A DNA stretch of 64,000 nt from Phoronis australis (lineage: Eukaryota > Animalia > Phoronida). The notes beneath the pieces were generated by a model. The model had not been told where the DNA came from and searched no databases. It was given only the letters and a program-made list of their open reading frames with translations. Position numbers and translations under genes: made by a program. The DNA is taken from NCBI GenBank assembly GCA_002633005.1, contig NMRA01000450.1:288876-352875 (forward strand). Reading direction: 5' to 3'. This document shows positions 9,201 to 12,200 of the stretch, one piece after another; positions within the stretch are counted from its first letter, which is position 1; the number at the start of each line of letters is the position of its first letter.

Positions 9201-12200
9201 GGCTTATTGTTGAATTGCTGAATTTGAGTTTGGTGAATTTGATAATGTCACAATTAATACTTGTCTGTGGTGTTGTTGATGGTGTTACAATAACACACAG
9301 ACCAATGTCAGTAGTTGGTCTATCACAATTTTGACTCTTTATGACCTGACATGTTTACATAACTTTGTTACACTAACCTCCTTACTTATTGATCCCTGAC
9401 ATTAACAACGTTGTACTTCCAGCGGCTGCAGGCTGTGGCGGCCATTACACGGCTGAGTCAGGTGTACTAATCTCACCCAATTACCCTAACCCATATGAGC
9501 ATGACGCCGAGTGTGTGTGGACCATAGAGATTTCACCGGAGACCGAGTCAATCTACTTAACATTCACTAACCTAGAAATAGAGTCGCATTCCTGGTGTGG
9601 TTATGATTTTGTGGAGGTTTGTTTTACTTGGCTTTACCCGCTCTGCTGGTTGTCTGCGTTTGCTTACTTGGCCACCTTGTGACTGGTCAAGTCTGTAACT
9701 TTGAGGAAATTTTTCCCAGACTTCTCCATTTCCTCTGCTGTCCTCTAAGTGTATGTCATACAGTCTCATTTCCCAGAGTTCTCTGTAATGTTCTTCCATC
9801 ACTGCGGTAACATACAGTCTCCTTTCATTGGCAAGTACTTTAATGTGCATGTTAATCTGCCCTGTTTGAATCTTTCAAAATTACCCTTATTGAAACTCAG
9901 GAGGTCAATAAACGGTAACCATTTTTGATCACATATACAACTGTGAAAAGATATATTTTCTGTTTAGGTTTTGTGTGTGTGTTTGGTCAATAAAACTCAA
10001 ATGGTTAAGGGTGGGTGATGTTGATTTATAAATTATGGTAGGGAAGAGGCAAGGGTGCTGCTTATGATCAAAGATACTAAGACCATTTGAATACACAGCT
10101 AGAAAATGTTACTTCAAACAATACATTTACACACTATGATAACATTGTTCGAATTCTTGCTAGTAAAAGATGGCTGCTGTTACCATGACATTCATGTGAC
10201 TTATAACAAATAAAGCAGAGATAACCTGTAGCACTCTAGCTGCCCTGACATGTCCCGCTCCCCACTGTAGCATGCCTCCACTCTAACGTGTCCCCCTCTC
10301 CCTCTAACATACCCCTCTAGCATGTCCCTCTGTGCTTCAACATGTCCCCCTCTCCCTCTGACACGTACTTCTCTCCCTTTCTTTCAGTCGCCTGCTTCAC
10401 TTCTGAACCTTTTTCTGCCTCTCAGTATACCCATCTTTGTTACAGCGGCATCAGGTTGCGGGGGTCACTACACCTCCGACCAAGGAGTGCTTATTTCCCC
10501 TAACTATCCGAACCCTTACTCGCATAATGTGGAATGCGTTTGGACCATCGACATCCCGTCCCGTGGACAGCGCATCATTCTGTCCTTTACAAACCTAGAC
10601 ATTGAGTCACATAGCAACATAGAAGTCTTGCTCAAGCAAAGATGTGCCTGGGATTTTGTGGAGGTAGGATGGAAGGGTCCTGTTGGTGGTATGCAGTGCT
10701 GGCCCTGAATGTGCAGTGGCACCTGTAGGGAAAAGAGCATTTCACTTACCTCGTAGCCACCATAGCAATATACGACGCAGCATCAAGGGCCTTAGGCATC
10801 AACCGATCAAGTGCTAGAACTGTGTGACCCATTTTTATAGAAATGACAAGGTTTAATTAATAGTTAGTTTCAGTATTCAGTCTAAACATTTACACTGTTT
10901 TATGTTTGTGTTAATTTAGATCAAATCTGACCGAGTGTGCTTCACCTTTAGGTGTTATTCGTACCTCATTCTTATGCCATGTTGTTGACTTCTCAGTTTC
11001 ATATATTAGCACTCTCCTGTTGTTCTTCTAATTATCATTTTCCCTACGCTCCGCATGGCAGGTACGCGATGGTATTGATGAGACAGCTGACTTGGTTGGA
11101 CGATATTGTGGCACCCAAGTCCCCGCCCCCTACACCTCGTCCTCCAATCAGCTTTATGTAAGGTTCAAGACAGATTACTCACAGAGCGGTAGCGGGTTCC
11201 GTGCTACTTGGGAAGTTGGTAAGTGACCATTGGTTGATGGTCAGTTGGCTATGTTACTGCTATGGCATGTCATCATAGATGCAGTAAGGCTTGGCACTCA
11301 ACAAGTAACTATGCCTTCAACTTCACAATCTACTTTGCAGATGCTAAAAATGTCAGCATTGAAATTATAAGAGCCTTTCCCCAGTCCCTGTTGTCATAAA
11401 GTCCCTATTAGCCTGTGGTGCTTCTGTCTATAGTTTGGCCACAGACTGACAGCCATTGCAGTTGGTGTATTAAATGGTGCGTGGTGTCTCTTCCTATGCC
11501 CACATTGTACAACCACTTCTTACTGTGTGAAATCATCAGCTACATTGTCGAACCATCTGCTACATTGTCGAACCATCTGCTACATTGTCGAACCATCTGC
11601 TACATTGTCGAACCATCTGCTACATTGTCGAACCATCTGCTACATTGTCGAACCATCTGCTNTACACGGTCAAACCATCTGCTACACGGTCAAACCATCT
11701 GCTACACGGTCAAACCATCTGCTACACGGTCAAACCATCTGCTACACGGTCAAACCATCTGCTACACGGTCAAACCATCTGCTACACGGTCAAACCATCT
11801 GCTACACGGTCAAACCATCTGCTACACGGTCAAACCATCTGCTACACGGTCAAACCATCTGCTACACGGTCAAACCATCTGCTACACGGTCAAACCATCT
11901 GCTACACGGTCAAACCATCTGCTACACGGTCAAACCATCTGCTACACGGTCAAACCATCTGCTACACGGTCAAACCATCTGCTACACGGTCAAACCATCT
12001 GCTACACGGTCAAACCATCTGCTACACGGTCAAACCATCTGCTACACGGTCAAACCATCTGCTACACGGTCAAACCATCTGCTACACGGTCAAACCATCT
12101 GCTACACGGTCAAACCATCTGCTACACGGTCAAACCATCTGCTACACGGTCAAACCATCTGCTACACGGTCAAACCATCTGCTACACGGTCAAACCATCT

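What the first reader, a model, noticed from the sequence alone, without database searches (positions are those of the whole stretch)
9423..10663. CUB3 alternative exons differ by an 8-aa loop insertion next to the Ca2+-ligand Glu
E8a (194 nt) reads ..[16 protein letters not shown]8b (218 nt) reads ..[23 protein letters not shown]. The 24-nt in-frame insertion sits between the conserved Glu and the Cys-x-x-Asp motif, the CUB ligand-binding loop. N-terminal halves are near-identical in protein ([18 protein letters not shown]) but full of synonymous changes, which suggests purifying selection on both. Both exons also keep an in-frame second CAG 9 nt into the exon.
Basis: partly seen in the sequence, partly recalled or inferred. 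Interest (0 to 1): 0.72.

Follow-up and report, generated by a model that had tools for sequence, protein, structure and literature searches.

The report
Cubilin swaps a ligand-binding loop exon
An invertebrate gene for cubilin, a scavenging receptor of gut and kidney cells, carries two old duplicate exons for its third CUB domain, each seen spliced into RNA, and one adds eight residues to a loop that likely binds calcium and cargo, so the animal likely makes receptor versions with different binding surfaces.

Summary
The window holds a cubilin gene (nearest sampled relative: the annelid Owenia). Exons 9423-9616 and 10446-10663 are paralogous N-halves of CUB3. Either alone keeps the frame; both or neither gives an early stop. 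Stranded RNA reads from three runs join each exon to the shared downstream exon (11 reads for E8a, 9 for E8b), some spanning the whole 24-nt insert; no E8a-E8b joint was listed, and the ratio differs between runs (7:1, 4:3, 0:5; p=0.01-0.035, low counts). Synonymous sites are saturated (pS 0.87) with pN 0.20, so both copies are old and constrained. The Glu-to-Cys loop is 12 residues in E8b against 3-4 in 148 of 148 other CUB3 sequences. Mutually exclusive duplicate exons that remodel binding surfaces are a known kind; my searches found no report for cubilin. A changed ligand preference is inferred, not shown: neuropilin keeps a working calcium site with a similarly long loop, and human CUB3 lacks the consensus site.

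The parts
7032..7194 (+). E7, constitutive exon, C-half of CUB2; ends in phase 1
   Evidence: Joint from E6 in 26 reads over 3 runs; its 3' end is the consensus of 5 loose ends before E8b in run X3; borders
9423..9616 (+). E8a, alternative N-half of CUB3, canonical 4-residue Glu-to-Cys loop; phase 1 to 0; donor GTTTGT
   Evidence: Pfam CUB E 1.9e-17; joints to E9: X1 7, X2 4, X3 0, plus 6 short loose ends in X1. No E7-E8a junction was listed.
10246..10445 (+). Pyrimidine-rich stretch before E8b, candidate splicing control element (untested)
   Evidence: 73% C+T over 200 nt and 11 TCTT/CTCT words, highest of 20 acceptors examined; 0.46% of the window's 200-nt windows reach 70%
10446..10663 (+). 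E8b, alternative N-half of CUB3 with 12-residue Glu-to-Cys loop; phase 1 to 0; donor GTAGGA
   Evidence: Pfam CUB E 3.5e-14; joints to E9: X1 1, X2 3, X3 5; 5 reads enter it from E7 in X3
10616..10639 (+). 24-nt in-frame insert, 8 residues (NIEVLLKQ); its first 12 nt resemble the 12 nt coding DIES just upstream, so perhaps begun by a local duplication (inference)
   Evidence: joint reads with 48 and 57 letters on the shorter side cover it whole, no indel listed
11062..11218 (+). E9, shared C-half of CUB3, carries the last Asp of the calcium motif (F-K-T-D)
   Evidence: Pfam CUB E 2.2e-11; joined to both E8a and E8b, and 14 loose ends run on into E10
20240..20424 (+). Candidate alternative N-half of CUB8, copy a (185 nt)
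   Evidence: Profile scan, borders, frame test; no RNA test
23058..23239 (+). Candidate alternative N-half of CUB8, copy b (182 nt); one shared C-half at 24920-25082
   Evidence: 30 of 60 residues identical to copy a, pS 0.83, pN 0.32; no RNA test
39142..39341 (+). Candidate alternative C-terminal two thirds of CUB12, copy A (200 nt), canonical loop
   Evidence: no RNA test
39843..40051 (+). Candidate alternative C-terminal two thirds of CUB12, copy B (209 nt), divergent, longer loop before the Cys and no Glu in the usual register
   Evidence: Same phases as copy A and open frame; best PDB hit cubilin 3kq4 E 1.2e-11; 19 of 65 residues identical to A; no RNA test

Best explanation
An old tandem duplication left two exons for the first half of cubilin's CUB3 domain, each of which is spliced to the shared second half, and the choice between them likely gives receptor isoforms with different surfaces at the predicted calcium and cargo site. 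Shown: both exons are open, in the same phase, spliced to E9, constrained, and used in different proportions in three runs. Inferred: transcripts with both or neither exon shift frame and would be removed by nonsense-mediated decay, which enforces the either-or; the choice is likely regulated (weak E8a donor, long pyrimidine tract before E8b); the E8b domain likely still folds and binds calcium, with the 8 extra residues bulging from the loop beside the acidic ligands and so changing which cargo or neighbouring CUB domain can dock. Candidate pairs in CUB8 and CUB12 would work the same way.
For: Frame test: no stop with either exon alone, stops with both (codon 169) or neither (codon 59). RNA joints 7/4/0 for E8a and 1/3/5 for E8b; no E8a-E8b joint and no E7-E9 skip listed; heterogeneity p 0.010 by reads, 0.035 by distinct starts. 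pS 0.87, pN 0.20; end branches 0.29 and 0.33, sisters at 92/91. Loop 12 residues against 4 in 145 and 3 in 3 of 148 distinct CUB3 sequences. Tyr, Glu, Asp and the E9 Asp are kept in both forms. CUB calcium sites bind a ligand lysine or arginine and the cubilin CUB6 and CUB8 sites bind intrinsic factor (PMC6283879, passages). Neuropilin a2 has a Glu-to-Asp spacing of 14 (alignment) and its calcium site binds VEGFR2 (PMC13371918, passages). Variable residues of mutually exclusive exons cluster at functional sites in general (PMC7954323, abstract and passages). All three candidate pairs include the Glu...Cys-x-x-Asp loop.
Against: No binding, calcium or protein data. Human CUB3 is not among the 13 consensus calcium-site domains (PMC6283879), and no ligand is known to me for CUB3. 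Counts are small (20 joint reads in all, about 18-19% of each run read, one study, tissues not given), so the skew could reflect individuals' genotypes or chance, and a rare double-inclusion form (listing needs 3 reads) could be missed. Intronic sense-strand reads are also present. Any exon covering half a CUB domain has a fair chance of including this loop, so three of three is weak. The 92/91 sister support is under the starred threshold. No relative with both exons was found, so conservation of the insert itself is untested; pN/pS concerns the framework only.
Confidence: 0.58

Rival explanations
1. Both exons are real and mutually exclusive but nearly equivalent: each is kept because it carries part of the gene's output (division of splicing duty), and the insert is a tolerated loop extension.
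For: Constraint is measured on the framework only. Long loops at this place occur in constitutive CUB domains: this gene's CUB4, amphioxus CUB13 with Glu-to-Asp 15, neuropilin a2. The insert looks like a local duplication and models with pLDDT under 50.
Against: At the CUB3 position the loop is 3-4 residues in 148 of 148 sequences, so length there seems constrained; 20 of 64 aligned residues also differ; redundant duplicate exons usually decay (general knowledge).
Confidence: 0.25
2. The insert breaks the calcium site, so E8b makes a binding-dead spacer CUB3 and the switch turns one site on or off, or changes how the trimer's CUB crown packs, instead of giving a new specificity.
For: Glu-to-Asp spacing doubles from 8 to 16, the longest among the correctly parsed cubilin loops; Tyr before the Asp becomes Trp; CUB12 copy B lacks the Glu; calcium holds the crown together and some sites may join subunits (PMC6283879).
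Against: All four motif residues are kept in E8b after synonymous saturation; neuropilin a2 binds calcium and ligand with spacing 14 (PMC13371918).
Confidence: 0.14
3. E8b is an assembly artefact, an allele placed in tandem, or a decaying duplicate spliced only as noise.
For: The window does hold a likely uncollapsed haplotype: 34196-37078 repeats at 37077-39478 beside an N. Read counts are low.
Against: That block is 94% identical through its introns, with exons 132 of 133 and 199 of 200 nt identical, whereas E8a and E8b share 64% of nt and no intron similarity. E8b is the only form among listed joints in X3, has an open frame and pN far below pS.
Confidence: 0.03

Closest known systems
Cubilin (CUBN; cubam receptor with amnionless; PDB 3KQ4 for CUB5-8)
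   Same: EGF exons followed by a CUB array that matches Owenia cubilin domain by domain over most of the window; 59.6% identity to Owenia over 1513 columns of 24 constitutive exons; best PDB hit is cubilin.
   Different: No swapped CUB3, CUB8 or CUB12 segment in 23 annotated isoform pairs from 15 invertebrate taxa; none of 148 other CUB3 sequences has a loop over 4 residues; human CUB3 lacks the consensus calcium site that this CUB3 has by sequence.
Mutually exclusive exons from tandem exon duplication, frame-shift (NMD) class (Hatje 2017, PMC5740500; Lam 2021, PMC7954323)
   Same: Adjacent homologous exons of like phase, lengths not divisible by three (60% of human clusters in PMC5740500), variable residues at a predicted binding surface.
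   Different: An 8-residue length difference is large (Lam 2021 describes the changes as typically small); cubilin is not named in either main text, nor in the 10 supplementary files of PMC5740500 held as text.
Amphioxus cubilin RefSeq isoforms
   Same: Swapped homologous segments in cubilin isoforms: one in the EGF region (residues 403-451) and one in the C-part of CUB25 (3428-3471).
   Different: Other domains; the CUB25 swap starts after the Glu...Cys-x-x-Asp loop; these are automatic annotations, and I did not see their exon structure.
Neuropilin a2 CUB domain
   Same: A long loop between the Glu and the Cys-x-x-Asp (spacing 14) in a CUB domain whose calcium site binds a protein ligand.
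   Different: Constitutive, unrelated loop sequence, different protein family.
Dscam1-type exon arrays with docking-site RNA pairing (recalled)
   Same: Several independent either-or choices in one receptor ectodomain would multiply isoforms.
   Different: Only pairs (at most 8 combinations in the window), and no shared docking duplex stronger than shuffles was found.

Membership tests
Mutually exclusive exons from tandem duplication | Adjacent homologous exons coding the same domain part in the same phases | tested here: met
   44 of 64 residues identical, both phase 1 to 0, both Pfam CUB positions 1-60
Mutually exclusive exons from tandem duplication | Each exon spliced to the shared downstream exon | tested here: met
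   11 and 9 joint reads to E9 over three runs
Mutually exclusive exons from tandem duplication | Each exon spliced to the shared upstream exon | tested here: inconclusive
   E7 to E8b: 5 loose-end reads in X3; E7 to E8a: none listed, and 9 joints were not shown
Mutually exclusive exons from tandem duplication | No productive transcript with both or neither | tested here: met
   Both and neither give early stops; no such joint listed, at low depth
Cubilin | EGF repeats followed by a collinear CUB array orthologous to cubilins | tested here: met
   Three EGF exons and CUB1-22 in the window; tree groups it among cubilins, beside Owenia at 0.995
Cubilin | Full set of 8 EGF and 27 CUB domains and the N-terminal amnionless-binding region | not testable with these tools
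   Both gene ends lie outside the window and no genome is held
Calcium-binding CUB domain | Tyr-Glu-Asp-Asp signature (PMC6829435, PMC10850435, passages) | tested here: met
   Tyr, Glu and first Asp in both exons, last Asp in E9; which Tyr is the signature one is recalled
Calcium-binding CUB domain | Canonical Glu-to-Asp spacing of about 8 | tested here: not met
   Met by E8a (8), not by E8b (16); neuropilin a2 shows that spacing 14 can still work
Calcium-binding CUB domain | Actual calcium-dependent ligand binding | not testable with these tools
   Needs protein work
Docking-site (Dscam-type) mutually exclusive splicing | One intronic docking sequence pairing with a selector beside each exon | tested here: not met
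   Best shared duplex -24.9 kcal/mol upstream (8 shuffles -21.0 to -24.2, scanned on a coarser step) and -16.8 downstream (10 shuffles -16.4 to -21.0); crude test, one species

The most novel reading that the evidence does not exclude
This cubilin is a combinatorial scavenger receptor: three independent either-or exon choices (CUB3, CUB8, CUB12) rewrite the calcium-site loops, giving up to eight receptors whose cargo range is set by tissue or stage, for instance gut against nephridium. With the swapped segments in amphioxus and mollusc isoforms, cubilin would have gained splice-level cargo tuning several times in invertebrates, and the natural pairs would map which CUB domains bind cargo.
Probability: 0.3. 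Interest if true: 0.72.

Novelty: new member of a known kind. Interest (0 to 1): 0.48.

Why it matters
Cubilin takes up many different proteins through 27 similar domains, and which domain binds what is known for only a few (CUB6 and CUB8 for intrinsic factor, CUB7-8 for albumin; PMC6283879, PMC9485058). Cubilin with amnionless is a candidate conserved marker of the bilaterian hindgut (PMC12768270, passage). Natural isoform pairs that differ in one domain's calcium-site loop give ready-made matched controls for asking whether CUB3 binds cargo and how long a loop the CUB calcium site tolerates. The splicing mechanism itself is ordinary.

Tried and rejected
No whole genome is held for this window. 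No RNA holder was listed by word index; the three raw-read runs came by species label; the contig run X4 had no depth over E8a-E9. Search for E8b relatives among proteins of 127-2000 aa: 4 candidates, none significant; the representative search and two cubilin searches gave no close relative (best constitutive identity 59.6%), so the orthologue test stays open. Two regular-expression loop counts were noisy, with misparsed long values; the alignment-based count replaced them. First frame tests had borders off by one base (CUB12 rows) and were redone. The AlphaFold model of the E8b half alone (mean pLDDT 74.8, insert under 50, pTM 0.54) gave no Foldseek match at E 0.001 and says nothing on the calcium site; no model of the complete domain was obtained, and the complex predictor was not available. 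The IQ-TREE species tree timed out; FastTree on 24 of 29 rows was used, dropping 5 rows with low coverage or low identity. Rejected: micro-intron reading of the insert (reads span it without deletion); haplotype artefact; docking-site pairing; steric exclusion looks unlikely with an 829-nt intron, but the branch point was not mapped. A sensitive search with 44 exons found no further convincing exon copies in the window. The CUB8 and CUB12 pairs did not group as sisters in short-alignment trees (0 of 200 bootstraps each), so their ages are unresolved. Earlier-findings look-ups returned nothing.

Full report
What is there. A six-frame scan and a CUB profile built from a stored cubilin show one plus-strand gene across the window: three EGF exons, then CUB domains 1 to 22. 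Its exons match Owenia fusiformis cubilin in order over most of the window. Over 24 constitutive exons the identity is 59.6% to Owenia, 58.7% to Sinanodonta and 57.0% to Mercenaria, and a FastTree tree of 24 rows places it beside Owenia with support 0.995 (5 of 29 rows dropped). The host is therefore likely a lophotrochozoan; the species was not identified and no genome is held.

The observation. E8a (9423-9616, 194 nt) and E8b (10446-10663, 218 nt) have AG/GT borders and the quoted peptides. Both match Pfam CUB positions 1-60, and E9 (11062-11218) matches 61-110: two first halves for one second half. Both run phase 1 to phase 0. E7-E8a-E9-E10 and E7-E8b-E9-E10 are open; including both stops at codon 169 and skipping both at codon 59. 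The insert is 10616-10639, between the Glu at 10604 and the Cys at 10643.

RNA. Three stranded raw-read runs with the same species label (one study, tissues not given, 18-19% of each read) were laid on the region. On 9200-11400, 88 of 89 laid reads were 99% or more alike and all first mates lay on the minus strand, as expected for sense RNA in the usual stranded library. Joints to E9 were, for E8a and E8b: X1 7 and 1, X2 4 and 3, X3 0 and 5, all GT..AG; X1 has 6 further short E8a ends that run into E9. Five X3 reads enter E8b from the end of E7 at the first AG. E8b joint reads with 48 and 57 letters on their shorter side cover the whole insert, and no indel was listed. No E8a-E8b joint and no E7-E9 skip was listed, but listing needs 3 reads at 2 starts, and no E7-E8a junction was listed either. 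The three ratios differ with exact p 0.010 (reads) or 0.035 (distinct starts); this fits regulation but cannot separate tissue from genotype. Some sense-strand intron reads are present, as from unspliced RNA.

Selection and age. The exons share 44 of 64 residues, 122 of 192 nt and 20 of 64 third positions; pS 0.87 (saturated) and pN 0.20. Flanking introns show no similarity. In a tree with 38 other CUB3 first halves the two are sisters at 92/91, below the starred threshold, with end branches 0.29 and 0.33; their path of 0.62 is like that between Ptychodera and Glandiceps (0.53). Both carry one extra residue in an earlier loop that only 2 of the 38 others have. So the duplication likely happened within this lineage, long ago, and E8b is not evolving faster than E8a. 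This differs plainly from the block 34196-37078, repeated at 37077-39478 beside an N with 94% identity through its introns, which I read as an uncollapsed haplotype.

How unusual is the loop. Of 226 stored proteins over 3300 aa, 180 gave exactly 27 CUB hits; they hold 148 distinct CUB3 sequences, many from fishes. Between the Glu column and the Cys, 145 have 4 residues and 3 have 3; E8b has 12. 118 of the 148 keep both the Glu...Cys-x-x-Asp and the F-x-S/T/A-D motif. At other positions long loops do occur: CUB4 of this gene, amphioxus CUB13 with Glu-to-Asp 15. Outside cubilin, neuropilin-2 a2 has spacing 14 (alignment), and the calcium site of neuropilin-1 a2 binds a VEGFR2 lysine through E195 and D250 with Y208 in contact (PMC13371918, passages; that D209 is the third ligand is recalled). 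So a long loop need not destroy the site. Against over-reading: human cubilin has consensus calcium sites in domains 2, 5-9, 11-14, 20, 24 and 26, not 3 (PMC6283879, passages). The half-domain model left the insert at pLDDT under 50 and settles nothing.

More pairs. The profile scan shows two first halves for CUB8 (20240-20424, 23058-23239; one second half at 24920-25082) and two C-terminal parts for CUB12 (39142-39341, 39843-40051). Each member alone keeps the frame; both or neither breaks it. All six exon lengths are 2 modulo 3 and all include the Glu...Cys-x-x-Asp loop. CUB8 is one of the two domains that bind intrinsic factor in human cubilin, and CUB8 and CUB12 are among the consensus calcium-site domains (PMC6283879). 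CUB12 copy B is very divergent (branch 2.88), with a longer loop and no Glu in register. These pairs have no RNA test and did not group as sisters in short trees.

Other species. In 23 annotated isoform pairs from 15 invertebrate taxa none differs in CUB3, CUB8 or CUB12; amphioxus isoforms swap an EGF-region segment and the C-part of CUB25, and eight mollusc species swap an arginine-rich for a non-basic segment near the N-terminus. Automatic annotation can miss minor exons, so this is weak evidence of absence.

Mechanism. Shown: two constrained paralogous exons, each spliced to E9, with frame incompatibility. Inferred: decay of frame-shifted transcripts enforces exclusivity, the commonest class in human (377 of 629 clusters have lengths not divisible by three; PMC5740500, passages). 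Candidate control features are the weak GTTTGT donor of E8a (also on CUB8 copy a), a 108-nt AG-free zone before E8a and a 73% pyrimidine stretch before E8b; no docking duplex beat shuffles. Inferred function: a changed surface at the calcium site, in line with the general finding that such exons alter exposed residues near functional sites (PMC7954323, abstract and passages). I put this at 0.58, neutral equivalence at 0.25, loss of the calcium site at 0.14 and artefact at 0.03.

Literature. Ten full-text searches of the held library: cubilin with mutually exclusive exons 0; cubilin, CUB3, alternative splicing 0; acidic triad query 0; mutually exclusive exons with CUB domain 0; cubilin with exon duplication 3 found, 2 listed, unrelated by title and abstract start; splice-variant query 12 found, 11 listed, none on cubilin isoforms by listing; some searches were background searches. 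Read as passages only: PMC6829435, PMC10850435, PMC6283879, PMC9485058, PMC7954323, PMC5740500, PMC13371918, PMC12768270. Ten supplementary files of PMC5740500 held as text do not name CUBN; large data sets may be cut or absent, and most subscription journals are not searched, so a prior report cannot be excluded.

Verdict. A real, expressed, old pair of mutually exclusive exons in an invertebrate cubilin, with a loop insertion unmatched among sampled CUB3 domains, and two more candidate pairs in the same gene. New member of a known kind; interest 0.48, higher if tissue-specific combinatorial use and different cargo are shown.

Noticed in passing
window 20240-20424 and 23058-23239: Second candidate either-or exon pair, first half of CUB8, a domain that binds cargo in human cubilin; frame-incompatible together; no RNA test.
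   Followed up: partly
window 39142-39341 and 39843-40051: Third candidate pair, C-terminal part of CUB12; copy B is very divergent with a longer loop and no Glu in register, copy A has Asn in place of the last Asp.
   Followed up: partly
window 34196-37078 and 37077-39478: Block with CUB12 exons repeated at 94% identity through introns beside an N at 37079; likely two haplotypes placed in tandem, though a true recent domain duplication is not excluded.
   Followed up: partly
window 10246-10445: Unusually long pyrimidine-rich stretch before E8b (73% C+T, 11 TCTT/CTCT words), a candidate site for polypyrimidine-tract-binding control.
   Followed up: partly
P0299/P0180, P0300/P0302, P0301/P0303, P0315/P0189, P0327/P0197, P0223/P0343, P0345/P0270 (residues about 143-243): Mollusc cubilin isoform pairs swap an arginine-rich segment, which looks like a furin-type cleavage site (recalled motif), for a non-basic one near the N-terminus; seen in oysters, mussel, clam, abalone and Babylonia, so possibly a conserved switch of processing.
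   Followed up: no
P0288/P0292 residues 403-451; P0291/P0173 residues 3428-3471: Amphioxus cubilin isoforms swap homologous segments in the EGF region and in the C-part of CUB25.
   Followed up: no
window 11500-12400, 13007-13530, 49340-49580: Intronic tandem repeats (20-nt unit at 11500-12400); two of the window's three N bases lie inside such arrays.
   Followed up: no
window 5520-5830 and 7530-7840: Interspersed repeats that draw many reads from other loci on both strands; the second looks like a tRNA-derived short element by eye.
   Followed up: no
window 11068: G/A difference in E9 in reads of X1 (6 of 11) and X2 (2 of 7), not X3 (0 of 8); likely an allele, third position of an Arg codon.
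   Followed up: no
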